64,000 nucleotides of DNA from Candidatus Caldarchaeum subterraneum (GCA_937934305.1 CALHAG010000002.1:142192-206191), one strand, 5' to 3'. Shown: positions 2,917 to 64,000, numbered from the stretch's first letter. Program-made: numbers and translations. Notes: generated from the letters alone by a model not told the origin.

Positions 2917-4754
2917 CAGGCGACACCCGCCACTGTGTAGTAGCGCTGTTTGAGGAATTCGTGGTACTCGAGCGCGTCTGATATGTTTTTCTCGATTCCT
3001 TCGACGATTACCGCCGCCTTTCTCTCAATATCGGCTATTATCTTCTCCTCGGATGCCCCGAATCTATCGACCAGGATGTTGAGTTTAGCGCTCTTCTTGA
3101 AAGCTTCCTCGGGGCTGTCGGGTTCGAACGTGTCTGACGACTCCCTCCATCTAAACACCTGATGAATCCTGAAGCCGGTGGCTGAACTGTCTGGAACTAT
3201 CTCCGCTATCTCCATCATGCGCCTCAGCCTGCCGTTGGGTGTGTCGGTGTAGGACATTATGCCGCAGCCCCAGAAGAAGCTGAGCAGGCTCTCGCTGAGG
3301 TCGGCTTTTCTCAACATGATGGCGAGCCTGCTGAAGAAGGCTGAGGCGGAGTCGGCGTGGAACGTGAACCCTCCGCCATGGCCTGTGAAGGCGGCGTTCA
3401 ATAGATGGTATATCGCGTCCTCGCTTCTCACCTCGCCTACCACGATGTAGTCAGGCCTCATACGTAGAGCCATTTTTATCAGCTCGGCTTCTGTGACCTG
3501 CACTTCTCTAGCGGTCATCATGCTCGGCCTCTTCACGGTCATGGCTCTCCAGCCGCGGGCGGGCAGGTAGAGCTCGTACGTGTCCTCGATGGTGTAGAAC
3601 ATGCTGTTGGGGTGGAGGCATGCAAGCAATGCGTTGAAGAGGCTTGTCTTACCGCTTCCCGTGGGGCCGGCCAGCCCGACGATAGCCTTCTGCTCTAGAG
3701 CATACCATAGATAAGCAGCCATTAACGGCGATAGCACCCCGCTTTTGACCATATGTGGCAGGCTCCATGGCATGACGGCGAATTTTCTGATGGTGAATCC
3801 CGGGCCTCTAGCGGCTATGTCTCTGCCGAATATGCCTGCGAACCTGTCTCCGCTCGGTAAAGCGAAGTCGCCGTATGGCTTTGCGACTGTTAGCCCGTGC
3901 CCAACCGCGTGTGCGAGCTTGTTCATGAAGTCGTTTACTTCGTCGTCGTCTCTGAAGTAGGCGTTTGACCATAGCCAGCGGTAGTGGCTGAAGCTTCTAT
4001 GGTAGACCCCGATGTATAATCCCGGGCCTATGCAGTTGATGTCCTCGATTTCAGGGTCCTCGACCATGATGTTTAGCACACCGTATCCGAAAAGCTCTCT
4101 CGCGATGTAGTATGTGACCTTCGTCCTTGTCTCGTCGTTGTCTATCCCAAGTGTTTTGAGCGCTGAGCGTATATGGGGTTCGAGGGCTTGGCTCAGGTTT
4201 ATGCTGGCTTTCTTGACGACGACATCTGTTCTATGGCTTCTTTTTGAAAGCGTCGTGACAACGTCTTCGGGGATTTCAGCCTTCATGTAGATGTTCTCGA
4301 GGGCCATGCTGTATCCCAGTATATCCTCCGGCTCCAGCTCAGGCTCTGAGACGAAGTATCTGCCTGTCATCCCCTCGGCGGCTATCCTTATGCTGGCGAG
4401 GCCTATCCTGTAGCTCTTCAACGTGACCCCTGTCCCAGGGTCTCTTAGGACAAGCGGTATCCTGGCGGCTGAGGAGAGGAACCTCTCCAGTAGCTTGAGG
4501 CGTTCCTGAGCCTTGGCCAGTATCTTCTCCTCTTTCTTGTCGAGCTGCTTGGCTGGTAGCCTGATGACCGGTGGCGGAGCCGCGGGCTCCTTGTCCGCCT
4601 TATCCTGTTTACGTGTCTTCTTTGCCTCAGGCTCTATTGCTTCTACTGTTTTCGTTTTCAGCGACTCTCCGCAGTTGGGGCAATGTAGTAGCTGTATCCC
4701 TTCTTCCTCTATGATGGGGGGCAGTTTTTCGCCGCATGCTGGGCACTTATCCAC
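2916..4754 (-). CDS. Type II/IV secretion-family ATPase (FlaI/PilB/VirB11 family) with an N-terminal C4 zinc ribbon and a Lys/Glu-rich linker
   Basis: Walker A is GLAGPTGSGKTSLFNALL. Walker B-like is PDYIVVGEVRSEDA. The N-terminus carries CPACGEKL...CPNCGESL. The gene sits next to the platform gene and the pilin genes. Confidence 0.8.
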   Translation of the reverse strand: MDKCPACGEKLPPIIEEEGIQLLHCPNCGESLKTKTVEAIEPEAKKTRKQDKADKEPAAPPPVIRLPAKQLDKKEEKILAKAQERLKLLERFLSSAARIPLVLRDPGTGVTLKSYRIGLASIRIAAEGMTGRYFVSEPELEPEDILGYSMALENIYMKAEIPEDVVTTLSKRSHRTDVVVKKASINLSQALEPHIRSALKTLGIDNDETRTKVTYYIARELFGYGVLNIMVEDPEIEDINCIGPGLYIGVYHRSFSHYRWLWSNAYFRDDDEVNDFMNKLAHAVGHGLTVAKPYGDFALPSGDRFAGIFGRDIAARGPGFTIRKFAVMPWSLPHMVKSGVLSPLMAAYLWYALEQKAIVGLAGPTGSGKTSLFNALLACLHPNSMFYTIEDTYELYLPARGWRAMTVKRPSMMTAREVQVTEAELIKMALRMRPDYIVVGEVRSEDAIYHLLNAAFTGHGGGFTFHADSASAFFSRLAIMLRKADLSESLLSFFWGCGIMSYTDTPNGRLRRMMEIAEIVPDSSATGFRIHQVFRWRESSDTFEPDSPEEAFKKSAKLNILVDRFGASEEKIIADIERKAAVIVEGIEKNISDALEYHEFLKQRYYTVAGVA

Positions 4755-17035: not shown

Positions 17036-20000
17036 TTGAGTAGGGAAGCCGTATTTCAAGACAAGCTTAAGGAGCTTATTCAAGCTGCTTCTAAATTCCG
17101 ATTCGATGGTTTAGAGGTCTCTAGGGTTGAAAGGGACCATCCTGTAGATTCTAGGGAGGTGGACATAGCGGTATTCATTAGAGGGGGCTTGCCGTTCCTG
17201 CTCATAGAGACAAAGAAAAAAGCTGAGGGGAAAAGGGATAGGGGGCTTTTCGACCCCCTCGCTTTGGCGGTCGTAGGCCAGGCGATAAGCTACGCCGCTC
17301 TATATGGGAGAAGGGGACTTCACGTACCATATTTTGCCACCGCTAACCCAAAGTCAATCGCGGTTTTCAAAACACCTAAGGATTTGAACGAGTACGTGAA
17401 TTATGCGAAGATAGAGAAAAGAGACTACAGCAATGTAATTAGGCAAGAGAAGTTCAGCGACCTGATTAAAAACTATCTGATAATAAGAGAGGAGCTGAAG
17501 TTAACAGAGGAATACATCCAAAATCTGCTTGACAGATTAGCCAAAGACTTTCTAGAGAAAAGGGCTCTAAAAGTAGAGCTCTCTTTCGCTTTAATAAACC
17601 AGTTCAGGTCGTTTGTAGAGGACCTGAGTGAACAGTGTAGGGACTTGCTTGAGCTGAAAATGAAGGATGACCTCGCGTTAAAAACAGAACTTGATAAGAT
17701 GGAAAAAGAGCTGGGTTACAAGCCATCTTCAGAAGAGCTGGTCAGGATGATGTCCTATGTTTTGATGAACAAGCTGATATTTTACAAAGTATTGGAGGAG
17801 AAGTACAAACTACGTAGGTTGACGGATTTGGATACGTCTTCCAGTACAAGCTTCCGAGAGCAACTCTTAAAGTATTTTGATGAAGCCGTGAATGCCACTA
17901 AAGACTTCGAGCCAGTATTCAAGACAGGCATCTACGATATGCTCCCCATTCCCGACGACCCGAACGTCATGGAGAGAATCAACGACTTCATATCCTTTCT
18001 CGATAACGTAAAAGTCGAGGAGGTAGGAGACTTAGCTGGCTACATTTACGAAGAGCTGATACCCCCTGAAGAAAGGCACAGGCTAGGCCAGTTCTATACC
18101 CCTCCAGCTATATGCGAGCTGATAACCAAGTGGACCATAAGGAGTCCAGAAGATATTGTATTGGACCCTGGGTGCGGCAGCGGGGGCTTTCTCCTACAGG
18201 CCTATAGAAGGCTGCTTAAGCTCAAAACTGGCAGAGACGTTTTACCTGCATCAAAAGAAGTTCATGAAAGGATTTTAAATCAACTGTATGCTGTGGATAT
18301 CAACCCCTTCCCAGCCCATTTAACGGCGGTCAACCTCTCTATGAAGAACGTCAGGGCGCCATCGAGTCAGATGAACGTGATAGTCCAGGACTTTTTCTCA
18401 ATCATGCCCGGTCATGAACTCATATTACCGTACAGAATTAAGACGGCTGCAGGAGAGGTTGAGCGTAAAATTACGATGCCGAAAAAAGCGGACGCCATAG
18501 TGGGCAACCCTCCTTACACGAGATGGGTGGAGATTCCCGAGAAAACGAAGAAACAAGTCTTGGAGCGTCTAAGAAGGGGAAGGGACTTGATTGGTATGTA
18601 CGGCTTGACGCCTCAGGTATCCAGAGGGGTTGAGCCCGGAATATACACCTACTGGATAATGCATGCTACGGGCTTCCTCAAGGACGGGGGAAAGCTTGGA
18701 ATGATTATATCCAATCTATGGATGCAGACGGATTATGGGATAGGTTTCGGGAAGTTCCTATTGGATAACTATAAGGTAAAGGCGATTATAGACTTCACTC
18801 TCCGCCTCTTCACCGCACTCATTTCAACCTGTGTAATCCTTTTGGAGAAGGAAAAAAATCAAGAAAAGAGGCTTAACAACGAGGTGGTCTTCATCCACAT
18901 ACCTGGCACAATCGAGAGCGTGAACGTAGAAGAAATCCTTGAAGTAGTAGAGAGTAAGAAGTCGGATAAGTTCTACGTTAAAGTAATGAAGCAAGGCGAA
19001 ATACCTGCTGATAGAAAGTGGATGGACGTTTTCTTCGGGAAAAAGGAGGTCTACGAATCCAACCTTCTCGTGAAATTGAGTGAACTTTTCGACGCATCAT
19101 ACGGTAACATCAAATATCTCGTATTGGTCTCTACAGGTAAGTTAAGGGGGGTTCGAAACCCTGGTGCAAGTGAGTTCCATTATCTCACACCCTCAAAGGT
19201 CAAGGAATTCAAATTAGAGAAATATGCGTATCCTAATTCTGATTTAAAGGACGCTTTAATCTGGCCTGCAATAACGAGTGCGAGGCAGGCGGAGTTCTTC
19301 ACGTTTACGGAGGACGATTGGAAACAAATGTATGGGAATGATGAGAAGTGCTATATGTTTATAGGACATAAGCCGAGGAGCAAGCTACCTGAGGAGGTCA
19401 GGAAATATGTAAAGTGGGGAGAAACGGAATGTGTAACTAGGATTAGGGAGAGCAGAGGAGGAGGTAGGCTGGCTAACCAGACGGAGTCGGCTAAGGTTAG
19501 GGCTGGTTCGAAGGAGTTCTATGGCTGGTATGATTTGGGTGGAGTAGTTCCAGCACCTATATTTGCTATCTACCAAGCTTGGTACAAAACTAGGTTCATT
19601 TTGTGTAGATTTCCAGTAGCTATGTACCACGCATTAATAACCCTCGTGCCACGAAATAGTGTCTCTTTAAACGAGGAACAGGTAAACGCGCTTCTCGCTT
19701 ATTTGAATTCTTCATTCATACAATACTATGTAGAGACTCATGGACGGAGAAGCGGGGGTGGAATAATCGGTCTCGAAATCAACATCGCTAGGGACATGCC
19801 GGTTCTGGACGTCAGAAAACTAACTAAGGAGCAGGTCGAAAGCCTAGCCCATAAATTCGGCGAGCTTGAAGCCGAGGCGAGAAGAATAGGAGGGGCTTCA
19901 ATGAAGGAGCAGATAGAGAAGCTCAAACCAAAAATATATGAAATCGACCACATTATAGGCGAAATCCTAAGTTTAAAGCCGGAAGATGTGGAAGATATGC

Positions 20001-20182
20001 AGAAAACAGTTGAAGACTTGGTTGAAAGACGTATCATGGGAGCTAAGGAAGCTATGCCGGAATCCGTTAAAGGAGAAGCAGAATTAAGGATTAAACCACC
20101 CAAAAAAGCTAAAAGAAAAAAGGAGAAAAACGCAACAACAAAACAACTTGATGAATTCTTTGAAGGTTTACAGAGTAAATAA
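17036..20182 (+). CDS. Type IIG restriction-modification fusion enzyme: N-terminal PD-(D/E)xK nuclease plus gamma-class N6-adenine DNA methyltransferase plus C-terminal specificity region
   Basis: N-terminal EVDIAVFIRGGLPFLLIETKKK looks like a PD-ExK nuclease. Motif X/I is QFYTPPAICELITKW...LDPGCGSGGFLL. Motif IV is IVGNPPYTRW (NPPY). 1048 aa. The gene is much more AT-rich than its surroundings. Confidence 0.75.
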   Translation: MSREAVFQDKLKELIQAASKFRFDGLEVSRVERDHPVDSREVDIAVFIRGGLPFLLIETKKKAEGKRDRGLFDPLALAVVGQAISYAALYGRRGLHVPYFATANPKSIAVFKTPKDLNEYVNYAKIEKRDYSNVIRQEKFSDLIKNYLIIREELKLTEEYIQNLLDRLAKDFLEKRALKVELSFALINQFRSFVEDLSEQCRDLLELKMKDDLALKTELDKMEKELGYKPSSEELVRMMSYVLMNKLIFYKVLEEKYKLRRLTDLDTSSSTSFREQLLKYFDEAVNATKDFEPVFKTGIYDMLPIPDDPNVMERINDFISFLDNVKVEEVGDLAGYIYEELIPPEERHRLGQFYTPPAICELITKWTIRSPEDIVLDPGCGSGGFLLQAYRRLLKLKTGRDVLPASKEVHERILNQLYAVDINPFPAHLTAVNLSMKNVRAPSSQMNVIVQDFFSIMPGHELILPYRIKTAAGEVERKITMPKKADAIVGNPPYTRWVEIPEKTKKQVLERLRRGRDLIGMYGLTPQVSRGVEPGIYTYWIMHATGFLKDGGKLGMIISNLWMQTDYGIGFGKFLLDNYKVKAIIDFTLRLFTALISTCVILLEKEKNQEKRLNNEVVFIHIPGTIESVNVEEILEVVESKKSDKFYVKVMKQGEIPADRKWMDVFFGKKEVYESNLLVKLSELFDASYGNIKYLVLVSTGKLRGVRNPGASEFHYLTPSKVKEFKLEKYAYPNSDLKDALIWPAITSARQAEFFTFTEDDWKQMYGNDEKCYMFIGHKPRSKLPEEVRKYVKWGETECVTRIRESRGGGRLANQTESAKVRAGSKEFYGWYDLGGVVPAPIFAIYQAWYKTRFILCRFPVAMYHALITLVPRNSVSLNEEQVNALLAYLNSSFIQYYVETHGRRSGGGIIGLEINIARDMPVLDVRKLTKEQVESLAHKFGELEAEARRIGGASMKEQIEKLKPKIYEIDHIIGEILSLKPEDVEDMQKTVEDLVERRIMGAKEAMPESVKGEAELRIKPPKKAKRKKEKNATTKQLDEFFEGLQSK

Positions 20183-28327: not shown

Positions 28328-29959
28328 ATGGATTTCTTGCTTGGAGATTTGATGCCAAAGCTTGAACAAGGGGAGTACATTGTCCCCGACATACAGAGGC
28401 CTTTTGTGTGGCGGAACAACCAGATACTTGAGCTCGCGGATTCTATTTATAACCGTTTCCCGATAGGGTCGATATGCGTTGCCGAGATACCGCCACAGGT
28501 GCGGGATGAGCTGGAGTCAATTTTCAGGCCAATCGCAGATGACATGAGTATGAAGAACGGTCGCTACATACTAATAGATGGGAGGCAGAGGCTGACATCA
28601 CTCCTCCTGATAAAGCATGGTGAAATCAAAATCAACAACGAGGTAAAGCGGATTAACCTTCTATTCGATGCGTTGAATGAGAAATTCGTTCTCGGACGGG
28701 GCAAGGCAAGGCCAAGCAGTTATACTTACAGCGTAGCAGAGGTTTTGCAGGTAAACGACCTTTCTGAAATTTCTGAATCTTATCAGAAACTGCCCGAGCA
28801 GACGCCGAAAATAACTCAAAACCTGATGAGGCTTTGGACAAACTTCTACCACTATAGAGTCACCTTCATGGAGGTATCGGTAAACTGGAACGTGATTGAC
28901 CATCTCGAGCCTTTCGAGAGAATATCGAGAATGTTTGTGGCGTTGAACAGGCAGGGCACCAAGGTGAAGCTACACGACCTCGTCCTAGCTCTCCTTTCCG
29001 GCAAAATCATACGTGAACAGGGTAGGAGGTTTAGGGACCAGTTTGAAGATTTGCTGAATCGTCTGCAAAACAGGGGCTATGATGTCGACGCCCCGCCGCT
29101 TATACGGGCCTACCTAGCAATCTCAACCGGTCAGATAAAGTTTAAGCAGGCTCTAGCTGAGCTGGAGAAACATAATGCAGAGACATTACTCGGATATCTA
29201 AACAGTACATCGGAGGCTTTCCAAAGGGTTTTAGACATATTCCAGGAATACGGTGCCAGGCCCAAGTTCCTAGTATCACACTACCTTCCCGTCATGCCAG
29301 CCATAATTATGCATAACAGGTATCTAACGCCGAAAAAACAGGTTGACAAGAAGTTTAAACATGAACTGCTTAGATGGCTTGTGCTTGCATCATTCGAGGG
29401 CAGATATACCGGGAGACTAGAAAGCGACCTGCTAGAAGATTTGGAATCTGTGAAGGATGGTTGGGATATTAAACGCTTGATTGAAAACCTAAAGGTTAAG
29501 GAGCTATTGCCCGACTATTTAGAGCAGGAGTTTTCCAACGAGCATCGAACCCTATTATCCATTCTCCTCAAATTCTCTAATGCCCGTGACTTGGTTCACA
29601 GAGATTGGAGCACCAACGATAATCTGAAAACAAGTAAGATATGGGAGCTAGGCGACGAGAATATAAACGAGCATCATATCTTCCCACAATATCTTTTCAA
29701 AAAGAAGCTCTTGGACCCGGAGCTGGAGAATGATGCAGCTAACATTACATTTCTCTCACAACACACCAATAAAGCATTGAGAGACAAGGAGCCGTCAGAT
29801 TATCTCCCCAAACTCTACGAAGAAGACGCCTCCATGCTAGAGGAACACTGTATCCCACTTGAGTCCGAGCTATGGAAACGCGAAAACTATGGAGAATTCT
29901 TGAAGGAGAGAAGGAAGATTATACTCGACAGATGGAACAAATTCCTAGCGTTTATTTAA
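28328..29959 (+). CDS. GmrSD-family Type IV (modification-dependent) restriction endonuclease-like protein (DUF262 + DUF1524)
   Basis: N-terminal YIVPDIQRPFVWRNNQILELADSIYNRFPIGSI matches the DUF262 DGQQR-type signature. C-terminal NEHHIFPQYLF matches the DUF1524 His-Me finger. AT-rich relative to neighbours. Confidence 0.75.
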   Translation: MDFLLGDLMPKLEQGEYIVPDIQRPFVWRNNQILELADSIYNRFPIGSICVAEIPPQVRDELESIFRPIADDMSMKNGRYILIDGRQRLTSLLLIKHGEIKINNEVKRINLLFDALNEKFVLGRGKARPSSYTYSVAEVLQVNDLSEISESYQKLPEQTPKITQNLMRLWTNFYHYRVTFMEVSVNWNVIDHLEPFERISRMFVALNRQGTKVKLHDLVLALLSGKIIREQGRRFRDQFEDLLNRLQNRGYDVDAPPLIRAYLAISTGQIKFKQALAELEKHNAETLLGYLNSTSEAFQRVLDIFQEYGARPKFLVSHYLPVMPAIIMHNRYLTPKKQVDKKFKHELLRWLVLASFEGRYTGRLESDLLEDLESVKDGWDIKRLIENLKVKELLPDYLEQEFSNEHRTLLSILLKFSNARDLVHRDWSTNDNLKTSKIWELGDENINEHHIFPQYLFKKKLLDPELENDAANITFLSQHTNKALRDKEPSDYLPKLYEEDASMLEEHCIPLESELWKRENYGEFLKERRKIILDRWNKFLAFI

Positions 29960-55077: not shown

Positions 55078-55811
55078 ATCTTCATCAAAGTGTTGTTTTC
55101 AGGGTTGAGGAGCCACGCAACCAAGTCGAAGACGTTCTGCGGATTGGGTAGAACAAAGTCAGCCAGACTACATGCGTTTGCCTCTCCGGCTCCGCATGCG
55201 AGCAACCCTATAGCGGGTATGTAGGGCCCTGCGGCCACGAAAGCTATTGAAGCCGCTATAAACCATGCGCCTATTCCCCTGAGCTTTCCTCCGGGGACAG
55301 CCAGCAGGGCCACGCCAAGGGGAGCGAGGACCACTGCTAGCGAGCCGAAGACCGTTAAAAACACCATCAAGGTGAAGCTTGTTATAAGCGTCACGGAGAG
55401 GGCTAGACCCGGCAGAGAGGCGATTACGCTAAAGATGTTGGCTATCGCCGGCCCCACTATAGGTATCAGAGCGGTCCCCATTCCTATCCCCGTAATGATG
55501 GCCAGCAGCGAGAAGGCCTTATTGCCTACAGTCAAATACAGCGTTGGAAGGTCAGAACACTCAATCCTCGGAGCGGCTATAGAAGATGAAACAATATTGA
55601 TTAAACCATTGATAGAATTGGCTACGCCTAGGACGGCTACGACGCCGGCAGCCACGAGGCTGTATGAGATTAGGTGACCGCCCCATGAGCTGCCGCTTCC
55701 GCCCGGCAAAGGGGTTCTATGCAGGGCTAAGCCAACCGCATAGCCCAGGCTGACAAGGGCCCAGGCGACGGCGGCGTATTCACCCAACCCCGCGTAGGTA
55801 CAGCTAATCAT
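54969..55811 (-). CDS. Polytopic membrane protein (CedA/VirB6-like candidate)
   Basis: 280 aa with ~7 hydrophobic helices. Sits between the pilin candidate and the giant membrane protein. Confidence 0.4.
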   Translation of the reverse strand: MISCTYAGLGEYAAVAWALVSLGYAVGLALHRTPLPGGSGSSWGGHLISYSLVAAGVVAVLGVANSINGLINIVSSSIAAPRIECSDLPTLYLTVGNKAFSLLAIITGIGMGTALIPIVGPAIANIFSVIASLPGLALSVTLITSFTLMVFLTVFGSLAVVLAPLGVALLAVPGGKLRGIGAWFIAASIAFVAAGPYIPAIGLLACGAGEANACSLADFVLPNPQNVFDLVAWLLNPENNTLMKMWRFALGSLAGWGIVTAAAAALSKGIGGVAASLGFG

Positions 55812-55848
55812 CTAAACCGCCTCAAAAAAAGGAGGGGGGATGTGGTGT

Positions 55849-56373
55849 TCAACTTGGCACGTCCCAGGGACCGCCTATAGGTATAGACGAGCCCTGCCCT
55901 GACGCTGCCACAGCCACGTCGGCTGCGAATTTTATGATGTAGAGGCCCAGCGCGGTCAGCCCGCCGACTATCAGCGCGCTGTCAATCAGTTGTCCGGCGC
56001 CCTCCTTGGTCCTGTGAGACCCTAGAGGCAGGAACTTTATCGCTATCCCCGCGCCCAGCAGAGCCATCGCAATCAGCAGGAGAAGCTGCTGAAACCCTTG
56101 CAACGGCTCCCTAATCAAGTTTGCAACCCCTCCCGCGCCCGCTGCGTGAACCGTCTGAGACGCCAGAGCCGTCGCCGCCAGTTGCACAGCCGTCAATGCC
56201 GCAGGCCTGAGCCGTGCCAACACCTTTCCCATTCTCCAAGCCTTGTGGGTTTTCATGGTCGCTTCGAGACCGTCTCCGAACATGATAATAGATAAACTTT
56301 TGGTGGCAAACCTGAACGAGAACTGAACGAAAGTTGAACGTAAGTTGAACGAGGAGAAACTATTTTCGGTCAA
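55849..56373 (-). CDS. VirB2/TrbC/CedA1-like pilin candidate; the probable true start is the ATG at 56256
   Basis: From the internal Met: MKTHKAWRMGKVLARLRPAALTAVQLAATALA (signal-like), then two hydrophobic helices separated by a short charged loop (GSHRTKEGAG). The annotated N-terminal 39 aa read through the promoter/repeat region. Confidence 0.4.
   Translation of the reverse strand: MTENSFSSFNLRSTFVQFSFRFATKSLSIIMFGDGLEATMKTHKAWRMGKVLARLRPAALTAVQLAATALASQTVHAAGAGGVANLIREPLQGFQQLLLLIAMALLGAGIAIKFLPLGSHRTKEGAGQLIDSALIVGGLTALGLYIIKFAADVAVAASGQGSSIPIGGPWDVPS
56282..56300 (-). promoter_or_regulatory. Candidate TATA-like promoter for the 15-gene minus-strand array
   Basis: The minus strand reads AAAAGTTTATCTATTATCATG ~27-45 nt upstream of the ATG at 56256. 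It lies immediately next to the TGAACG array. Confidence 0.3.
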
Positions 56374-56481
56374 GGTATCTGTGAAGTGGCTGAATTTTGG
56401 CGAATTAGGCTGACCATAATTACTCGGCCGTCGTTCAATTCTCGTTCAGTTTACGTTCAACTTTGCCACCAAAAATTTATA
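56295..56481. repeat. ~55-bp inverted repeat (arms 56295-56354 and 56428-56481) carrying TGAACG boxes at exact 11-bp phasing
   Basis: Left arm TTTTGGTGGCAAACCTGAACGAGAACTGAACGAAAGTTGAACGTAAGTTGAACG has TGAACG at 56313, 56324, 56335 and 56346. Right arm CGTTCAATTCTCGTTCAGTTTACGTTCAACTTTGCCACCAAAAA has CGTTCA at 56432, 56443 and 56454. A third direct copy of the right arm is at 56880-56934. Confidence 0.7.
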
Positions 56482-56635
56482 TAGGGTTCTTCATGATGTC
56501 AACTAGGCTATTTAAAGGTAAATGGTTAATGCCATGTAAAAAATCGGCTTATTTCGCCATAACTCGCCAATCCAGAAGAAATGGTGGAAGAGACGGAAAA
56601 AGCCCAGTTTTAGTGGATTGACGTAATGCAAGCTC

Positions 56636-56760
56636 GTTTTTGACAATATTTGGTCAACCCCCATCCGTGGAGAGGCGAAATTTCCGGGAATTAGGGCGGA
56701 TTATATGTTGACCGAAATTAGTCAGAGTTTGGTATTACGCCCCGTTTCTAGAGCCTAGAG
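56636..56760. repeat. Copy of the composite palindrome-containing repeat unit (degenerate palindrome TTGACAATATTTGGTCAA)
   Basis: TTGACAATATTTGGTCAACCCCCATCCGTGGAGAGGCGAAATTTCCGGGAATTAGGGCGGATTATATGTTGACCGAAATTAGTCAGAG. Confidence 0.6.
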
Positions 56761-56879
56761 AGGATGAGTTTCGGGTCTTTAAGTCTACGGATTCCGCAAA
56801 ACAGACAAATATTAAGACATTTGACGAAAAAATGGATATGATGAGTGATGGTTTTAGACGGTGACCGAAATTACTCAGC

Positions 56880-56934
56880 CGTCGTTCAAATCACGTTCAA
56901 TTCTCGTTCAAGTTTGCCACCAAAAATTTATAAG
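56880..56934. repeat. Direct repeat of the right arm (CGTTCA x3 at 11-bp phasing + TTTGCCACCAAAAATTTATA)
   Basis: ~90% identical to 56428-56481. CGTTCA at 56882, 56893 and 56904. Confidence 0.65.
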
Positions 56935-56989
56935 CCATCAGTTTTGAGACAGTCCCAGACCAAGCCCTTAACCGAGGGGTTTGGTCCCA

Positions 56990-57410
56990 TAAACCCTACG
57001 TGAAATACCGATGAGGCCCTGTTGCGGCAGGGCTGAGCTGGAGAGGCGCATGCGGAGCGTCCCGTGACGGGGTTCGTCAGATACCTCGTCACCCGAGGGC
57101 TGGGAGCCGGCATGCCTGGCCCAAGGCCCCGGACACTCACGTAGGGTGTGCCGAAGCCGGCGATGCATAGGTGCTGCGGACGCTTGGTAGAGGGGCACCC
57201 CCGCCACCGAAGCGACCAACGGACCCACAAGGCTTGGAGGTGGATGCAGGGATGCCCCATAGGGAGGAGAATAAGCCTCCTTATAGGGCTTCCCACCCTC
57301 TCCAACGCCTACGAGAAGAGCTACCGGTGACTATAAGGGGTACTAACGGGACTGGTGACATGCGGTGTCCGGTGACCTATGTAGGTCTCCGAAGTGACTA
57401 AGGGGCAGGC
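56990..57410. ncRNA. GC-rich hairpin-dense non-coding segment (candidate structured RNA of unknown class)
   Basis: No coherent ORF; the tracks show only Arg/Pro-rich spurious frames. There are many local hairpins (GCCCTGttgcggCAGGGC, CCCGtgaCGGG, GGCATGCC). A 10-bp perfect inverted repeat CCCTACGTGA (56993) / TCACGTAGGG (57141) closes a ~140-nt domain. I compared it to RNase P and SRP RNA motifs and the resemblance was partial and inconsistent. Confidence 0.25.
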
Positions 57411-57490
57411 TTAGGGGTTGGATAGATTATCCAAGAGGGCTCTAAGGAGACGGCTGAGGTGTTGGATAGATTATCCAAGGGGGTTGGATG
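57408..57490. repeat. Three copies of the palindrome TTGGATAGATTATCCAA spaced 44 and 22 bp apart (iteron/operator-like)
   Basis: Copies at 57408-57424, 57452-57468 and 57474-57490 (the third is TTGGATGGATTATCCAA). Each is flanked by G-runs. The spacings are multiples of 11 bp. Confidence 0.7.
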
Positions 57491-57916
57491 GATTATCCAA
57501 GGGGCTGGCTACGACAACTTGGGGGTGGCTAAGGGGTTGGTAACAAGAATTGTTCTAACCCATTAGAACCCTCTACCATGCGTGTAATGGGCTTCCGCGC
57601 CCGGGCTGACCATGCGCCCAAAAGGCCTCCGAAAAGGGAAATCCCCGGAACCGCAGCAGGGGAGAAGAGGCCGAAGACATGGCAACAGACCCGGGACAAG
57701 GGGGAGAACGGTTGGCTGACTCTCCCCGCCATCCCGGAGCCCACTCCCGGGAAACTCTTCCCGGCAACGCCCGTTCACGCGGGCGGGGGGCTCAACAACA
57801 CATGCCCCCCGAAGATGCCAGAAGAAAGGCCGGGATGGGCTCCGGCCATCGACGACAGGCGGGGGGAGAACTCCCCGGTGGCCCGCCGGGGAGGAGGTGA
57901 AAAGAATGAAGAGGAG

Positions 57917-58165
57917 TTGTTAGCACTCATAAACGGTGGCGCCATTGGGTCACAAATTGCTTCTGCTATACGCGAGATTGTGATGCTGGTGTTCGAAATC
58001 TTGACGCCGATTGTCAACATCCTAGGTGTCGCCATGATTGCGATAGGACTGTTGATTGCATTGGGATTGAGACAAGAGTTTTTGGGGTTCCGCTTGGTAA
58101 TTGGTGGAGCCTTAGCACTGGCCACAGTCCACTTGATTGTACCGCTACTGCTTACATACATCTGA
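57917..58165 (+). CDS. Small two-helix membrane protein (VirB2/CedA1-like pilin-like); uncertain start (TTG 57917 or ATG 57983)
   Basis: ...MLVFEILTPIVNILGVAMIAIGLLIALGLRQEFLGFRLVIGGALALATVHLIVPLLLTYI has two hydrophobic helices around a short charged loop. A GGAGGAGGTGA Shine-Dalgarno-like run sits upstream of the TTG. The long annotated N-terminus (57578 onward) is low-complexity and probably not translated. Confidence 0.3.
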   Translation: MLALINGGAIGSQIASAIREIVMLVFEILTPIVNILGVAMIAIGLLIALGLRQEFLGFRLVIGGALALATVHLIVPLLLTYI

Positions 58166-58599
58166 CGACTTCGATTGACCAACCCAACCCCCCTCCTTTT
58201 TTTCCATGGAGGCTTTCTCCCCCCTCTCTCTTTTCCTCTTTCCCCGCCCGCGAGGGCGGAGCCTCTTTGACTCCCCGAGTCCGGGAGGCGCCGCCCTTGT
58301 GGGGGAGAGGGGCGGAAGCCTCCCGGCGGGAGGGGATGGCGAGCGAGTTCCAACGCATCTGGGGGAACGAGACTAACTATATCCGCGCCCAGAGACGTCA
58401 CCGCCGCGGTGAACGCGGCGATGGGGAGTGGATGGAGTTAGTCTCGTTCCTACTAAACCAGCTTTTCTGAGTTTCTGAGCTGGCTGCTCAACGCCAGCCA
58501 GCCAAACACCCCTAATTTTTTTCCCTTGTCAAATAACTTCTACGCCTGAAACATGGCGTCCACCCCGTTTAATGATTGTGGGGTGGCGGGGGTGGTTGG

Positions 58600-58870
58600 C
58601 TGGCTCGCGCCTGGCTCCATGCGCATGTGCTGGAGCTGCGTAGTCCTTGCGCATGTGCGGGTCTATGCATCCTGCGCCCTATACACCGGCCATCCCCGCA
58701 GGGTCTTGCGCATGTGCAGGCCCTGTGATGAGCTCGCGCATGAGCGGCTCCGGTGTATGGGGGGCCTGCTCGCGTATGTGCGGCGGGCGCGGCCACTTGC
58801 GCATGTGCAGTGGCTGCCGCAGGCAGGCGCTTGAGGCGGGTGACAGGTGTGTCTCCTGCGCCATGTGTCT
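58600..58870. repeat. Cluster of seven GCGCATGTGC-like 10-mers arranged as three doublets (27-28 bp within a doublet)
   Basis: Copies at 58621, 58649, 58708, 58736 (GCGCATGAGC), 58772 (GCGTATGTGC) and 58799, plus a weaker one at 58858. All three forward frames and several reverse frames are open, which is typical of a GC-rich non-coding repeat. Confidence 0.55.
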
Positions 58871-59596
58871 GCCGGACTTGCCCGTGAGCGGTCCGCATAC
58901 ATGTGGGGAGCCTTCCTGCCCGTGCGCGGTTGGCTCCAGCGGGAGACACCCAAGCAGACGACATACAGACGATGTTCAGAGGTTGTTCAGATGCTCCGCC
59001 AGAGGAGTTCAGGAGCCATCTTATCCGTGGGAGAGGCATGGTGTCTCTTCCATGGGTTTACTCTATCAGGGCGCCATGGAGGCGTTTTGATGGAGAGGCT
59101 CCTAGCCCTGTTGGCGGAGACAGGTGAACAATGGTTTACTGATGTTTCGAGGATTGACACTGGTTCTATGGATTAAGCAACCGATTCAATAACACCTTGG
59201 AGATACAGGGGTTCATGGTATTCTGATGAGCATCAGATGATATGTGGCTGAAAAGGTCCGATGATTCTAGATATCTACGATGGTCTCAACAGGTCTCTAA
59301 TAAACGCCGACAAAAACAGGTCAAGAAACATCGACGACACTTAGCACCTCCCTCGGCGGGCCATACCTCGGGAACAGGGGCTGGGAGGATGCGGAGACTC
59401 TCCCGGGCCGCATAGGCCCGCCTCCCCACAAAAACACGGGGAGGTGAAAAAGAAATGAGGTCTGTATCCTCCTTCCCCTGGATCCCGGGGGTAAGGTCGC
59501 CCACTGGGCATTTGACCAGGGACCGCCTGCGGCCTGTGTTCCCGAGGGCCGTGGGCGGACTCTGCCCATCGGGGAGAGGAAGAGAGGTGTAGAGCG

Positions 59597-59773
59597 ATGA
59601 CTAGTAGAATGCTGGGGCCAGCATTAATAGCCGTTGCCTTGGTTCATGCAATCAACGCAATCATCGAGGGGCGGATATTCGAAGGCGTACTGCTGGTTGT
59701 CCTTGGTCTTGCTGGCGGACTTTACGTCGAGTACTTGTTTGCGAAGCTCCAAGAGAAGCCCCGACGGGTCTAA
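59597..59773 (+). CDS. Small (58 aa) two-helix membrane protein immediately upstream of the VirD4/HerA-like ATPase
   Basis: ATG at 59597. MTSRMLGPALIAVALVHAINAIIEGRIFEGVLLVVLGLAGGLYVEYLFAKLQEKPRRV. Below the ORF-track size cutoff. A GGGAGAGGAAGAGAGG purine-rich run lies upstream. Confidence 0.3.
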   Translation: MTSRMLGPALIAVALVHAINAIIEGRIFEGVLLVVLGLAGGLYVEYLFAKLQEKPRRV

Positions 59774-59787
59774 GAGGGTGTGCAGGC

Positions 59788-61216
59788 ATGTGGGCTAGAG
59801 TTTTTGTGACACTGATAATCATCTTTGGCTTCATGGCTTACGCCTATGTTGCCGCGCTGAATGCTGCCACCCAACTATACAACAGAGGTATACTGAAGAC
59901 CCCACCACCTGCTTTAATCAACGTTGCGGATTTGACATGGGGGTCTATCATGGTGGTTTCAGCGATAGTCGTCATCACGCTAATCATCTCATTAGCGATG
60001 GCTATCTCTAGGTCACGGCGGTTGCTCGGAATAATCCCCGTCAACGATTTCCGAAGACACCTGCTGCTACTCGGACCCACTGGGTCCGGGAAAACAAACG
60101 CAGCCAAGAAGGCTATATCGCTGGCTATCCGCAGAGGTGTCAAGGTCATCGTCATCGACTGGAAAGCCCTCTCCTCCCCGCCAATATTTTTACATCTCTC
60201 ACGGGACGTCTGTAGAGTCGCATGGTGGAGCTGGGAGGGCCCAGAGAGGTGAATACGTTAACTTCGTCAAGGGAGCCACCGTTATCCGGAAGGTGAATCC
60301 GTGGGACAACGGAGGCTACACAGCGCGTCAGAGAGCTGTAATCGCTGTCGAAATGCTACGAGAAATCACCAGAGACATCGCTGACGTTTCTTCAGCATCT
60401 TCCGCAGTTCTCCTCCGAGAATTAATCAAGCTCTACGGAAAGGGGGTTCCGAAGAGCTCCGATGTCGTCAACAGGCTCGAGGAATTTTTCAGGACGGCGA
60501 TGATGGAGAGGCGTCTCGCAGAGGCTAACATGGCAGCGGCTTTGCTGCGGAGGCTGCAGTGGCTTGTCATCGATGAACAAAGAACAACAAAAAACGTCAT
60601 GGGTTCTGACGCCATTGTTATCTATGACCTATCAGAAATCCACAGCGTTTACTTGAAAACGTTATATGCGTTGACAGTGTTTCACAAAAACTACTACGAA
60701 GCTATGAGAGAGGGGTTGACAAACAGGCTGACGACTCTTCTGGTGGCCGAGGAATGCCAGAACTATGTCCACCCTCGACGTTTCGATGAACCACCCTCTC
60801 TTGGTGAGAGGGTGGTCAACGAGCTCAGAGGTTATGGCGTAGGAGTTCTGATGATATCGCCCGACCCGCTACAGATACCGATTCATTTACCACGTGATGT
60901 TGGCGCTGTGGCTTGCTTCGGAGCGCAGGCAGTTCCCGACTTCATCAGAGACATGCTGAGGGTGCTTCCACGTCAGCCAAAGATGGGAGAAGCCATCGTC
61001 TACCACAACGGCAGAATCAAGACAGCTAGGCCTCCGAAGAGGCCTCCTAAGACAATAGACCTGAAGACTGAGACAAAGGAGGTGATTGAAGAGGCTAAGC
61101 CTGAGGAGGCTGTCGAAACTCCTGCTACAATTCAACAACCTCAGGCGGAGGATGCTCAGACAAACCCGATAGAGCAGGAAGAGCCTTTGGAGGAGGCCCA
61201 GAGAGGCTCGAAATAG
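59788..61216 (+). pseudogene. Frameshifted membrane-anchored VirD4/TraG/HerA-like P-loop ATPase (two overlapping ORFs, 59788-60252 and 60137-61216)
   Basis: ORF 1 has two N-terminal TM helices plus Walker A LLLLGPTGSGKTNAAKK and then VKVIVIDWKA. ORF 2 (+1 frame) continues with a Walker B-like TLLVAEECQNYVHP. The frames overlap at 60137-60252 and there is a TATTTTT run at ~60190-60198. Confidence 0.5.
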
Positions 61217-61469: not shown

Positions 61470-62021
61470 GTGGAGGAAGAGGGGGCCCTACGATGCGTCA
61501 GATGTCATGCCTCGGTATCTCTGACCGAGGCGCCGACATTGGCGGAGATGCGATGTAGTAACGATGACAGCAAGAACAATGAGGTGTTGAAGTGTCAAGC
61601 CTGCAGAAGGCCGGCCACTCAAAAGCTTCCGCTAATTAACTTCAAGGGGGAGTTCGAGGACTTCAATGCATGCGATGCCTGCTCTAATGACTACCTTAGA
61701 CTGTTACGTCAGGGGCCTTCCCTTGGTCATGGCAAGGGAAGACTACCGCCAGACAGCTACTACTTCGACTCTCTCCGAACCGTTTTCCAGAGGCTTGGCG
61801 GGGTTTTCCCATGTCCTGCTTGCGATGAATTCTTCGACGACTTGCACTCTGTGGTCAAACATTTCTATGATAAACACCACGACAAACCACGGTCATTAGA
61901 GATGGACATTGATGGGGTGCCGGTCCTGAGGACATGGCAGTACATCTGGTGCAAGAGGTGTTTGAAGTGGTTCGAGAACGAACGTCACTTCCGCTCCCAC
62001 ATCAGAGAGCACATGGGGTGA
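61470..62021 (+). CDS. C2H2-type zinc-finger protein (plus N-terminal CxxC pairs)
   Basis: CPACDEFFDDLHSVVKHFYDKHH and CKRCLKWFENERHFRSHIREH. N-terminal CVRCH...CQACRRP. Confidence 0.5.
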   Translation: MEEEGALRCVRCHASVSLTEAPTLAEMRCSNDDSKNNEVLKCQACRRPATQKLPLINFKGEFEDFNACDACSNDYLRLLRQGPSLGHGKGRLPPDSYYFDSLRTVFQRLGGVFPCPACDEFFDDLHSVVKHFYDKHHDKPRSLEMDIDGVPVLRTWQYIWCKRCLKWFENERHFRSHIREHMG

Positions 62022-63810: not shown

Positions 63811-64000
63811 ATGGAGTTCCTAGTTTCGCTATTTACTGACAAAGAGCTTTTGAAAAAACTGCTGACCCCAAAGGTTGTCATTAATGATTATGGTTACACG
63901 ATTGTTCCGGCTAGGCTTGAATGCAGCCACTGTGAGCAGAAACTGCCTGTGAGGGAACCGGGAGGCTTTGCCCTCTTTGACACGGAGGGGACTCTATGGG
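63811..64000 (+). CDS. Hypothetical protein, partial (3' end runs off the right edge)
   Basis: ATG at 63811 preceded by GGGGAGGTGATTTGAAG, a Shine-Dalgarno-like GGAGGTGA 8 nt upstream. The frame stays open to the window edge. It contains CSHCEQ. Confidence 0.35.
   Translation, partial: MEFLVSLFTDKELLKKLLTPKVVINDYGYTIVPARLECSHCEQKLPVREPGGFALFDTEGTLW

What the first reader, a model, noticed from the sequence alone, without database searches (positions are those of the whole stretch)
57917..61216. Remnant second transfer module: small two-helix membrane proteins plus a frameshifted VirD4/HerA-like ATPase
Two small proteins (60-80 aa and 58 aa) each have two hydrophobic helices around a charged loop, which is VirB2/CedA1-like. 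They precede an ATPase with two N-terminal TM helices, Walker A GPTGSGKT and Walker B-like LLVAEE. The ATPase is split by a +1 frame change near the TATTTTT run at ~60190-60198.

This looks like either a decaying integrated conjugative plasmid adjacent to the chromosomal transfer system, or a gene that needs programmed frameshifting.

The sequence here is more AT-rich and uses a purine-rich Shine-Dalgarno-like run (GGAGGAGGTGA), unlike the overlapping, coupled genes upstream.
Basis: partly seen in the sequence, partly recalled or inferred. Interest (0 to 1): 0.5.

Follow-up and report, generated by a model that had tools for sequence, protein, structure and literature searches.

The report
Archaeal intron splitting a DNA-transfer ATPase gene
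The apparent frameshift in this membrane ATPase gene is an 82-base intron of the tRNA-splicing (bulge-helix-bulge) type, which has so far been reported inside only one archaeal protein-coding gene (cbf5).

Summary
The ORFs, motifs and the +1 frame change are real. The ATPase is neither decaying nor frameshifted. Intact homologs read ...VIVIDWK|GEYV... without interruption. The window has an 82-nt insert (60165-60246) exactly between those codons.

Eleven distinct homologs from Aigarchaeota (Ca. Caldarchaeum) carry an insert at this same site. Lengths run from 82 to 123 nt, all three phases occur, and 9 of 11 cannot be read through. All keep a bulge-helix-bulge (BHB) fold: CUGG / AAA bulge / covarying stem ... 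stem / CC[AG]G / [AG][AG]A bulge. Cutting after the second bulge nucleotide, as the archaeal splicing endonuclease does, gives AA|A-GGU = Lys-Gly, which is the intronless junction.

Both exons are under purifying selection (dN/dS about 0.2). The window's own split version is identical on 8 contigs. The neighbouring XPD helicase gene in related loci has a canonical BHB intron just after its Walker A lysine, in 5 of 5 loci examined.

The module is a conserved chromosomal part of a Ced/Ted-like DNA-exchange locus, not a plasmid remnant. It comprises a small two-helix protein, a 44-aa ORF, about 1 kb of conserved structured non-coding sequence, a second two-helix protein, the VirD4/HerA-like ATPase and a zinc-finger protein.

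No transcript evidence was available, so splicing is inferred.

The parts
57917..58165 (+). Small membrane protein sp1 (82 aa). It forms a helix-loop-helix. Many family members have a cleavable signal peptide, but this copy has none.
   Evidence: Codon-periodic substitutions against L006. 38 homologs, those with a source name all from Ca. Caldarchaeum. Alignment A5. AlphaFold pLDDT 89. No Pfam match, no significant PDB fold match and no hhalign match to the neighbouring TedC-like pilin.
58338..58472 (+). Conserved 44-aa ORF ending ...ELV..L.NQLF*
   Evidence: The same C-terminal motif occurs at the same relative position in L006, L130, L001 and L009.
58490..59530 (+). About 1 kb of conserved, GC-rich, structured non-coding sequence. 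It has three modules shared by five loci. Function is unknown.
   Evidence: Substitutions show no codon periodicity, yet identity to L006 exceeds 90% over 58540-59450. Modules at about 58492-58610, 58965-59134 and 59380-59500 are shared with L130, L005 and L001. The consensus fold of the first module has U-G variants that fit the + strand. No Rfam match at E<=1.
59597..59773 (+). Small membrane protein sp2 (58 aa, two helices). This copy lacks the C-terminal CxxC...CxxC zinc ribbon found in its 84-87 aa homologs, through an in-frame loss of 26 codons.
   Evidence: Codon periodicity. Homologs in L005, L001, L130, L006, L008 and L009 all carry the zinc ribbon.
59788..60164 (+). ATPase exon 1: two transmembrane helices, Walker A GPTGSGKT, and a beta-strand ending ...VIVIDW plus the first two bases of the Lys codon.
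   Evidence: DUF87 E 9.6e-08, TrwB_AAD_bind E 1.3e-04; dN/dS 0.22 against L002.
60165..60246 (+). 82-nt bulge-helix-bulge intron (inferred).
   Evidence: Insert lies exactly between invariant K126 and G127. An insert at the same site occurs in 11 distinct homologs, with lengths of 82-123 nt. Covariation is shown.
60159..60162 (+). 5' strand of the central 4-bp helix H (CUGG). It pairs with 60241-60244 (CCAG).
   Evidence: Predicted by unconstrained minimum-free-energy folding. 100% paired across 11 sequences, with U-A/U-G variation.
60163..60165 (+). 5' three-nucleotide bulge AAA. The inferred cut is after 60164.
   Evidence: Cleavage rule from PMC12397907.
60166..60173 (+). 5' strand of intron stem h' (GCCCUCUC). 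It pairs with 60233-60240 (GGGAGGGC).
   Evidence: In the 7 tested pairs of this stem, 5 show changes on both sides and 94.8% of cells pair.
60233..60244 (+). 3' strands of intron stem h' (60233-60240, GGGAGGGC) and of central helix H (60241-60244, CCAG).
60245..60247 (+). 3' unpaired triplet AGA. The inferred cut is after 60246. It lies opposite unpaired GA at 60157-60158, so the 3' site is relaxed. The flanking exon helix is 60152-60156 with 60248-60252.
   Evidence: (exon helix 74.5% paired across homologs).
60247..61216 (+). ATPase exon 2: completes the Lys codon, then GEYVNF..., the all-alpha insertion, Walker B LLVAEE and an acidic C-terminal tail.
   Evidence: (dN/dS 0.20 against L002).
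61470..62021 (+). Conserved downstream zinc-finger-like protein (183 aa). It is a syntenic partner of the ATPase.
   Evidence: Weak C2H2-type Pfam hits. Homologs follow the ATPase gene in L005 and L001.
56883..56931 (+). Third copy of a promoter-like element: an 11-nt-phased CGTTCA[AG] array abutting AAAAATTTATA. It faces the module. Other copies lie at 56289-56340 (-) and 56432-56483 (+).

Best explanation
The gene at 59788-61216 encodes one 448-aa membrane-anchored ATPase of the HerA/VirB4/VirD4 superfamily, built like a VirD4 coupling protein. Its coding sequence is interrupted by an 82-nt archaeal bulge-helix-bulge (BHB) intron at 60165-60246.

Shown by the sequence:
- The pre-mRNA can fold so that exon and intron form a 4-bp helix, CUGG/CCAG.
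- A 3-nt bulge (AAA) sits on the 5' side.
- Three unpaired nucleotides (AGA) sit on the 3' side.
- An 8-bp intron stem closes the motif.

Inferred:
- The tRNA-splicing endonuclease cuts after the second nucleotide of each bulge. In Caldiarchaeum this enzyme is heterotetrameric; the (alpha-beta)2 type is reported to have broad specificity.
- An RtcB-type ligase joins ...UGG AA to A GGU GAA..., restoring the invariant DWKGEY motif and the reading frame.
- Unspliced mRNA would yield only a 154-aa fragment carrying the transmembrane helices and Walker A.

Shown by synteny: the gene belongs to a conserved chromosomal module next to a Ced/Ted-like DNA-exchange system. The order is small two-helix protein, 44-aa ORF, about 1 kb of structured non-coding sequence, a second two-helix protein, the ATPase, then a zinc-finger protein.

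Inferred from context: the ATPase probably powers or couples DNA translocation in that system.
For: 1. Intact homologs (P0002 at 61% identity, P0003, and the JGI group of about 412 aa) read VIVIDWK-GEY without a break. D124-Y129 are invariant in 37 sequences.
2. The window's insert lies exactly between K126 and G127. Removing 60165-60246 gives GVKVIVIDWKGEYVNF.
3. Eleven distinct homologs have an insert at the same site. Lengths are 82, 83, 98, 99, 99, 113, 114, 114, 117, 120 and 123 nt, and close relatives differ by 1 nt. Nine of the 11 cannot be read through.
4. All 11 keep the BHB core. The six found through protein homology alone (the window plus five loci) were not selected for it. Overall 89.8% of cells pair, against 76% in shuffles (0 of 500 reach the observed value) and at most 64% in slid registers. 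Five of 7 pairs in the intron stem show changes on both sides.
5. Unconstrained folding finds the motif. The published cleavage position, between bulge nucleotides 2 and 3, reproduces the intronless junction exactly.
6. dN/dS between the window and L002 is 0.22 for exon 1 and 0.20 for exon 2.
7. The window's exon-1 read-through ORF is identical on 8 contigs. Exon-1-only ORFs form at least 6 clusters on about 39 contigs. Four independent MAGs share the 83-nt version.
8. Precedent in the same lineage: the XPD gene has a canonical hBHBh' intron after GLGK in 5 of 5 loci. 94% of cells pair, and the central helix covaries GGGA/UCCC with GGCA/UGCC.
9. Ca. Caldiarchaeum subterraneum has a heterotetrameric splicing endonuclease and many tRNA introns at non-canonical positions. 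The (alpha-beta)2 type is reported to have broader specificity, and relaxed BHB-like motifs are competent substrates for some of these enzymes.
Against: - No RNA data were available. The exact spliced proteins are absent from the protein collection, so splicing is inferred, not observed.
- The 3' splice site is not a clean 3-nt bulge. AGA faces two unpaired bases (GA), and the exon helix pairs in only 74.5% of cells across homologs.
- The fold energy of the region is unremarkable (z = -0.14).
- Naive BHB motif scans find hundreds of chance matches in the window. The case therefore rests on comparative evidence.
- Five of the 11 sequences were retrieved with a pattern that fixed part of helix H and the first two pairs of the intron stem.
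- Seven of 11 inserts are multiples of 3, and two of those are open, which is somewhat more than expected.
- The endonuclease and ligase genes were not located in this genome.
Confidence: 0.85

Rival explanations
1. Pseudogene or decaying remnant of an integrated conjugative element. An insertion has inactivated the ATPase and the module is eroding.
For: The gene cannot be translated as one ORF. The window's second small protein has lost its zinc ribbon. Identity to related loci is mosaic.
Against: dN/dS is about 0.2 on both sides of the insert. An insert at the same site, with a conserved and covarying fold, occurs in lineages whose ATPases are only about 50-65% identical. Synteny with chromosomal genes is conserved. 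No tRNA gene was found, and the ORFs downstream had no Pfam match, integrase included.
Confidence: 0.04
2. Programmed +1 ribosomal frameshifting, or translational bypassing, across the overlap 60137-60252.
For: The frames differ by +1, and a T-run lies in the overlap.
Against: Homologs would need +1, +2 or 0 shifts. In-phase inserts often carry stop codons. No slippery site is conserved. A frameshift product would carry about 27 extra residues between the invariant DWK and GEY.
Confidence: 0.03
3. The insert is never removed. The ATPase is made as two polypeptides that assemble: one with the transmembrane helices and Walker A, the other with the remainder. Alternatively, only the N-terminal fragment is functional.
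For: Gene callers predict two ORFs in many genomes.
Against: The first in-frame Met of exon 2 is 36 codons downstream in the window (P0001 starts at MLREI). Yet the codons before it (GEY..R.K.N.WD..G) stay invariant or nearly so, including in intron-bearing genes. No start codon or ribosome-binding site sits at the junction.
Confidence: 0.05
4. Sequencing or assembly artefact.
For: The source is a metagenome-assembled genome.
Against: The difference from intact genes is 82 nt, not one base. The exon-1 read-through ORF (P0160), which spans the whole intron, is identical on 8 contigs. Related versions recur in four independent MAGs.
Confidence: 0.01

Closest known systems
BHB intron in the cbf5 pre-mRNA of Crenarchaeota (Aeropyrum, Sulfolobales; Watanabe 2002, Yokobori 2009, PMC2738675)
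   Same: A short intron inside a protein-coding sequence, defined by a relaxed bulge-helix-bulge fold. The host has a heterotetrameric splicing endonuclease. Presence is patchy, with gain and loss among relatives.
   Different: A different phylum (Aigarchaeota/Caldarchaeales) and different genes: a membrane ATPase of a DNA-exchange locus, plus XPD. The cbf5 intron has been shown to splice experimentally; this one has not.
BHB intron in the 5' UTR of HVO_1309 in Haloferax volcanii (PMC7714728)
   Same: An mRNA that is a substrate of the tRNA-splicing endonuclease.
   Different: That intron lies in an untranslated region, so removing it does not restore a reading frame. The enzyme there is a homodimeric alpha2 type.
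Archaeal tRNA and rRNA BHB introns
   Same: The same motif geometry and the same inferred cleavage positions, between bulge nucleotides 2 and 3.
   Different: The host RNA here is a messenger, so intron length and phase decide whether the protein can be made.
VirD4/TrwB type IV coupling proteins
   Same: Two N-terminal transmembrane helices, a RecA-like P-loop domain and a helical insertion. Pfam TrwB_AAD_bind matches. Foldseek TM-score is about 0.5 to TrwB.
   Different: It does not reach the Pfam T4SS-DNA_transf cut-off. The best E-values are to HerA, with VirB4 ranking above TrwB. The Pfam scans and gene listings run on parts of the window and related loci did not turn up a relaxase. It lies in a chromosomal Ced/Ted-like locus, a kind of system that in Sulfolobales imports DNA.
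Ced (Sulfolobales) and Ted (Thermoproteales) DNA-exchange systems (PMC9905601)
   Same: Neighbouring genes include:
- a TedC/VirB2-like pilin with a signal peptide;
- a polytopic CedA-like protein;
- a 931-aa VirB4/HerA-like ATPase;
- HerA-like, Hel308, ParB-nuclease and RadA-like genes.

Small two-helix proteins resemble CedA1 and CedA2 in layout.
   Different: This is an aigarchaeal version. The Beltran et al. 2023 Ced/Ted paper makes no mention of Aigarchaeota. The extra 448-aa ATPase, the two-helix zinc-ribbon protein and the long structured non-coding region have no named counterparts there.

Membership tests
Archaeal BHB intron (substrate of the splicing endonuclease EndA) | A central 4-bp helix with a 3-nt bulge at the 5' splice site, followed by an intron stem | tested here: met
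   CUGG/CCAG, AAA bulge, 8-bp stem in the window. Helix H pairs in 100% of cells and the intron stem in 94.8% across 11 sequences.
Archaeal BHB intron (substrate of the splicing endonuclease EndA) | A 3-nt bulge at the 3' splice site, closed by an exon helix (strict hBHBh') | tested here: inconclusive
   Three unpaired nucleotides (AGA) are present but face two unpaired bases (GA). The exon helix pairs in 74.5% of cells. This is a relaxed form of the kind described for cbf5 and reported as a competent substrate for some broad-specificity endonucleases.
Archaeal BHB intron (substrate of the splicing endonuclease EndA) | Cutting between bulge nucleotides 2 and 3 at both sites gives a functional mature RNA | tested here: met
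   AA|A-GGU restores DWKGEY, identical to intronless homologs.
Archaeal BHB intron (substrate of the splicing endonuclease EndA) | The fold is conserved by covariation while sequence, length and phase vary | tested here: met
Archaeal BHB intron (substrate of the splicing endonuclease EndA) | The host encodes a splicing endonuclease and an RtcB ligase; spliced RNA and circular intron are detectable | not testable with these tools
   Only literature on Ca. C. subterraneum is available: a heterotetrameric endonuclease and 13 intron-bearing tRNAs. No RNA data.
VirD4/TrwB type IV coupling protein | N-terminal transmembrane helices plus a FtsK/HerA-superfamily P-loop domain with Walker A and B | tested here: met
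VirD4/TrwB type IV coupling protein | Sequence-family membership (Pfam T4SS-DNA_transf or TraG) and an all-alpha domain homologous to that of TrwB | tested here: inconclusive
   T4SS-DNA_transf scores E 0.3, below the cut-off. TrwB_AAD_bind reaches its cut-off only for the N-terminal P-loop stretch. AlphaFold shows a helical insertion at 152-236. Foldseek gives similar scores to HerA, VirB4 and TrwB.
CedB/TedB (VirB4-like ATPase of Ced/Ted systems) | A VirB4-type N-terminal domain ahead of the ATPase domain | tested here: not met
   Only two transmembrane helices precede the P-loop domain. The upstream 931-aa DUF87/AAA_10 protein is the better TedB candidate.
VirB2/TrbC/CedA1/TedC pilin (for sp1, 57917-58165) | A small protein with two hydrophobic helices joined by a short polar loop, often preceded by a cleaved signal peptide | tested here: met
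   AlphaFold hairpin. Signal peptides ending A-x-A occur in many family members, though not in the window copy.
VirB2/TrbC/CedA1/TedC pilin (for sp1, 57917-58165) | Detectable sequence, profile or fold homology to known pilins | tested here: not met
   No Pfam hit at E<=1. No significant Foldseek hit in the PDB. hhalign probability to the adjacent TedC-like protein is 0.2.
Programmed ribosomal frameshift site | The same shift direction and a conserved slippery sequence in homologs | tested here: not met
   Inserts occur in all three phases, several with stop codons.
Pseudogene | Relaxed selection downstream of the disruption | tested here: not met
   dN/dS for exon 2 is 0.20 against L002 and 0.13 against L006.

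The most novel reading that the evidence does not exclude
Endonuclease-dependent mRNA splicing may be a regular layer of gene expression in Aigarchaeota rather than a one-gene curiosity. Two DNA-handling genes in one neighbourhood carry BHB introns at conserved sites next to P-loop ATPase motifs: the DNA-exchange ATPase, and XPD just after its Walker A lysine. Splicing could act as a switch that licenses production of DNA-transfer and DNA-repair machinery, for example after DNA damage. This would be analogous to HAC1/XBP1 unconventional splicing in eukaryotes, which also ends with RtcB-type ligation. Unspliced mRNA would yield a truncated membrane fragment.
Probability: 0.2. Interest if true: 0.9.

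Novelty: new member of a known kind. Interest (0 to 1): 0.7.

Why it matters
In the papers I could search, cbf5 in Crenarchaeota is the only archaeal protein-coding sequence reported to be interrupted by a BHB intron. One further case lies in a 5' UTR in Haloferax. A 2023 review expected that more remain to be found.

Two more coding-region introns, in another phylum and in unrelated genes, would have several consequences:
- They would show that mRNA splicing by the tRNA endonuclease is broader than thought.
- They would give new natural substrates for studying relaxed BHB recognition.
- They bear on ideas about how protein-dependent splicing spread from tRNA to mRNA.

There is also a practical point. 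Gene callers split or truncate these genes in every MAG examined, giving annotations such as "hypothetical protein" and "DUF87 domain-containing protein". Genome annotation and pseudogene counts for this lineage are therefore biased.

Tried and rejected
- Rfam, at gathering thresholds over the whole window and at E<=1 over 56300-59700, gave nothing relevant. ARAGORN found no tRNA in the window.
- Naive BHB motif scans of the window are uninformative. The relaxed motif gave 3247 hits on the + strand alone, against about 2650 per shuffled sequence scanned on one strand. The strict hBHBh' motif gave 515 against about 400, both strands in each case.
- One scan hit joined two ORFs (12041-11930, minus strand). 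I rejected it because the downstream ORF has its own signal-peptide-like N-terminus and the fold does not form.
- The metagenome DNA-pattern scan was too loose once the tool required four plain starting bases. Only 5 of 120 loci were true homologs.
- The exact spliced proteins are not in the protein collection.
- A Foldseek search with the sp1 hairpin gave no significant hit. hhalign of the sp1 family against the TedC-like neighbour found nothing.
- I looked for C/D-box features in the intron by eye and found none.
- I considered that the inserts whose length is a multiple of 3 might be translated. This is rejected for 5 of 7 because they contain in-frame stops.
Full report
**What is in the sequence**

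- 57917-58165 encodes an 82-aa protein.
- 59597-59773 encodes a 58-aa protein.
- 59788-60252 encodes 154 aa with two hydrophobic N-terminal helices and GPTGSGKT.
- 60137-61216 lies in the +1 frame and carries LLVAEE.

Pfam places the first ATPase piece in the HerA/FtsK/TrwB P-loop group. DUF87 scores E 9.6e-08 and TrwB_AAD_bind E 1.3e-04. No tRNA gene and no Rfam family is found in the window.

**The frame break is an insert, not a frameshift**

I joined the two ATPase parts and searched with the result. This returned more than 300 homologs; those with a source organism name are from Nitrososphaerota / Ca. Caldarchaeum MAGs, and the rest are unnamed metagenome sequences.

Intact homologs read ...GVKVIVIDWK-GEYVGFVKGATVIRK... 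(P0002 at 61% identity, P0003, P0004 and the JGI group of about 412 aa). D124-W-K-G-E-Y129 are invariant in alignments of 10 and 37 sequences.

In the window the Lys codon ends at 60165 and the Gly codon starts at 60248. So 82 nt intervene. Removing them gives GVKVIVIDWKGEYVNFVKGATVIRKVNPWDNGG.

P0009 has a 38-residue in-frame insert at the same place. P0078, P0099 and P0113 are N-terminally truncated gene calls that begin just after it.

**The same site is interrupted in many lineages**

I fetched contigs for these proteins, for GTDB species representatives and for matches to a DNA pattern. Together they gave 11 distinct inserts at exactly DWK|GEY.

| Locus | Insert length (nt) |
|---|---|
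| window | 82 |
| L002-L005 | 83 |
| L101 | 98 |
| L006 | 99 |
| L120 | 99 |
| L123 | 113 |
| L001 | 114 |
| L119 | 114 |
| L008 | 117 |
| L091 | 120 |
| L009 | 123 |

- All three phases occur.
- Three close pairs differ by a single nucleotide: window/L002, L119/L123 and L101/L120.
- Five of the seven in-phase inserts contain in-frame stop codons.
- In all, 9 of 11 genes cannot be read through.

L007 and L130 have no insert. A fixed-direction ribosomal frameshift cannot explain this pattern, and neither can a translated loop.

**The inserts share a bulge-helix-bulge fold**

Unconstrained folding of the window region gives the following:
- an exon helix, 60152-60156 with 60248-60252;
- a 4-bp helix, CUGG (60159-60162) with CCAG (60241-60244);
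- a 3-nt bulge AAA (60163-60165);
- an 8-bp intron stem, GCCCUCUC (60166-60173) with GGGAGGGC (60233-60240);
- three unpaired nucleotides, AGA (60245-60247).

Every homolog keeps CUGG-AAA-GC...GC-CC[AG]G-[AG][AG]A-GG, while the intron stem changes. Examples are GCCCUCUC/GGGAGGGC, GCUGGGGGUGGC/GCCAC..CGGC and GCGGGU/ACCCGC.

I counted pairs on an ungapped 76-column core alignment.
- 89.8% of cells pair, against 76.1% in shuffles; 0 of 500 shuffles reach the observed value.
- Registers slid by 1-3 columns reach at most 63.6%.
- The intron stem has 5 of 7 pairs with changes on both sides.
- The 4-bp helix pairs in 100% of cells.

One caveat applies. Five of the 11 sequences came from a pattern that fixed part of the 4-bp helix and the first two stem pairs. 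The six sequences found by protein homology alone (the window plus five loci) were not selected in this way, and all show the motif.

The archaeal endonuclease cuts between the second and third bulge nucleotides (PMC12397907). Applied here, exon 1 ends at 60164 and exon 2 starts at 60247. The junction AA|A GGU encodes Lys-Gly, exactly as in intronless genes.

The 3' site is relaxed. AGA faces two unpaired bases, and the exon helix pairs in 74.5% of cells across homologs. The cbf5 motif is also described as relaxed. The (alpha-beta)2 endonuclease type is reported to have broader specificity, and relaxed BHB-like motifs are competent substrates for some of these enzymes.

**The gene is alive and the sequence is not an artefact**

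- dN/dS between the window and L002, both intron-bearing, is 0.22 for exon 1 and 0.20 for exon 2. Against L006, exon 2 gives 0.13.
- The codons between the junction and the first in-frame Met of exon 2 remain invariant or nearly so. This argues against a two-polypeptide enzyme.
- The window's 154-aa exon-1 read-through ORF spans the whole intron and is identical on 8 contigs, the longest 270 kb.
- Exon-1-only ORFs form at least six clusters on about 39 contigs.
- Four independent MAG assemblies share the 83-nt version.

**A second intron-bearing gene in the same neighbourhood**

In related loci the XPD helicase gene (Pfam DEAD_2) lies downstream of the ATPase gene. In every locus examined it is interrupted just after the Walker A lysine (GLGK|T). 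Inserts are 61, 61, 87, 91 and 88 nt in L131, L006, L002, L001 and L007.

Here the motif is a canonical hBHBh':
- a 7-bp exon helix, GGGGCUG/CAGCNCC;
- a 4-bp helix that covaries, GGGA/UCCC or UCCU against GGCA/UGCC or UGUC;
- 3-nt bulges AGA or AGU, and ACA or AUA;
- 94.3% of cells paired, against at most 60% in slid registers.

Splicing restores GLGK-TAPVWAAV. L007 lacks the ATPase intron but has the XPD intron. By alignment with L006, the window's own XPD gene would begin just beyond position 64000.

**What the module is**

AlphaFold models the spliced ATPase at pLDDT 78. It has two N-terminal helices, a RecA-like core and a helical insertion at residues 152-236.

Foldseek matches HerA (4d2i, E 2e-11), the VirB4 C-terminal domain (4ag6, TM-score 0.58 by target length) and TrwB (1gl7, TM-score about 0.5). 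The layout is that of a VirD4-type coupling protein. Sequence membership in that family is not established.

The minus-strand cluster upstream encodes:
- a TedC/VirB2-like pilin with a signal peptide;
- a polytopic protein whose L005 ortholog has a weak CedA1-family Pfam hit;
- a 1365-aa membrane protein;
- a 931-aa DUF87/AAA_10 ATPase, which is VirB4/TedB-like;
- a HerA-like ATPase;
- a Hel308-type helicase;
- a ParB-N nuclease-like protein;
- RadA/KaiC-like proteins.

This matches the gene content described for Ced/Ted DNA-exchange systems (PMC9905601).

The order sp1 - small ORF - non-coding region - sp2 - ATPase - zinc-finger protein recurs in L005, L130, L006 and L001. It sits on contigs of up to 702 kb, next to XPD and the primase large subunit. 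This is a chromosomal, conserved module and not a plasmid remnant.

sp1 belongs to a family of 38 proteins; those with a source organism name are from Ca. Caldarchaeum. Many members have an A-x-A signal peptide ahead of the two helices. AlphaFold gives a confident helical hairpin. No profile or fold homology to known pilins could be shown. The resemblance to VirB2 or CedA1 is therefore architectural only.

The window's sp2 is unusual. All homologs carry a C-terminal CxxC...CxxC zinc ribbon, which this copy has lost through an in-frame 26-codon deletion.

**Comparison with what is known, and novelty**

In the papers I could search, cbf5 of Crenarchaeota is the only BHB intron reported inside an archaeal coding sequence. 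HVO_1309 of Haloferax has one in its 5' UTR. Searches combining Aigarchaeota or Caldiarchaeum with intron terms found only tRNA and rRNA introns.

The kind of element is therefore known. The phylum and the genes are new, and there are two such genes side by side.

**Limits**

- No RNA evidence could be obtained.
- The endonuclease and ligase genes were not located in this genome. I rely on the Ca. C. subterraneum genome paper for these.
- Motif scans alone have no statistical power.

I put the confidence in the intron reading at 0.85.

Noticed in passing
L002 4925-5011; L001 3981-4071; L131 2533-2593; L006 10979-11039; L007 2926-3013: The XPD (DEAD_2) helicase gene is interrupted just after the Walker A lysine (GLGK|T) by a canonical bulge-helix-bulge intron of 61-91 nt, in all five loci examined. 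The central helix covaries. Gene callers split the gene or read its N-terminus in the wrong frame.
   Followed up: yes
window 58490-59530: About 1 kb of GC-rich (about 59%) non-coding sequence lies between the small genes. Identity to L006 exceeds 90%, although the adjacent ATPase gene is only about 68% identical. Three modules are also shared with L130, L005 and L001. It has hairpins with conserved stems and variable loops, a repeated motif (TTGCGCATGTGC here, TTGCCCGTGTGC in L006), and no Rfam match.
   Followed up: partly
window 56950-57400: A strongly structured GC-rich segment (fold z = -5.1) lies directly downstream of a TATA-like element. In a three-sequence alignment with L006 and L130, 18 of 76 predicted pairs show compensatory changes. 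There is no Rfam match. It is a candidate new non-coding RNA or long structured leader upstream of sp1.
   Followed up: partly
window 56289-56340 (-), 56432-56483 (+), 56883-56931 (+); L006 2760-2820 and 3020-3095; L130 5150-5175 and 5365-5395: Three copies of a promoter-like unit lie in the window. Each has 3-4 CGTTCA[AG] repeats at 11-nt spacing, abutting TTTGCCACCAAAAATTTATA. One faces the pilin operon and two face the module. Related genomes keep the layout but use a different repeat: GGTCGGCCA in L006 and GTTACGTAAC in L130. This suggests operators that are specific to each lineage.
   Followed up: partly
window 59597-59773: This copy of the two-helix protein sp2 has lost the C-terminal zinc ribbon (26 codons, in frame). 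The ribbon is present in L005, L130, L006, L001, L008 and L009.
   Followed up: yes
window 58338-58472: A conserved 44-aa ORF ends in ...ELV..L.NQLF. It is followed by a T7 run, and is also present in L006, L130, L001 and L009. In L009 the open frame ending in this motif also includes a signal peptide and an N-terminal segment resembling sp1.
   Followed up: partly
window 55801-58171 compared with 58172-61216: Relatedness is mosaic. The window is 96.5% identical to L005 up to the stop codon of sp1, then identity drops to 67-80%. The next 1.3 kb is instead closest to L006. This pattern suggests recombination between lineages within the DNA-exchange locus.
   Followed up: no
L003 and L130 (both from assembly GCA_038889995.1): One MAG holds both an intron-bearing and an intronless copy of the ATPase locus on different contigs. 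These are either true paralogous loci or two populations binned together.
   Followed up: no
window 1096-4754 (-); 17036-20182 (+); 28328-29959 (+): The window also holds type IV pilus assembly genes (T2SSF-like and T2SSE-like), which might play a Ups-like role. Two low-GC islands (about 44-47% GC) carry a type IIG-like N6-methylase/restriction gene and a GmrSD-family endonuclease.
   Followed up: no
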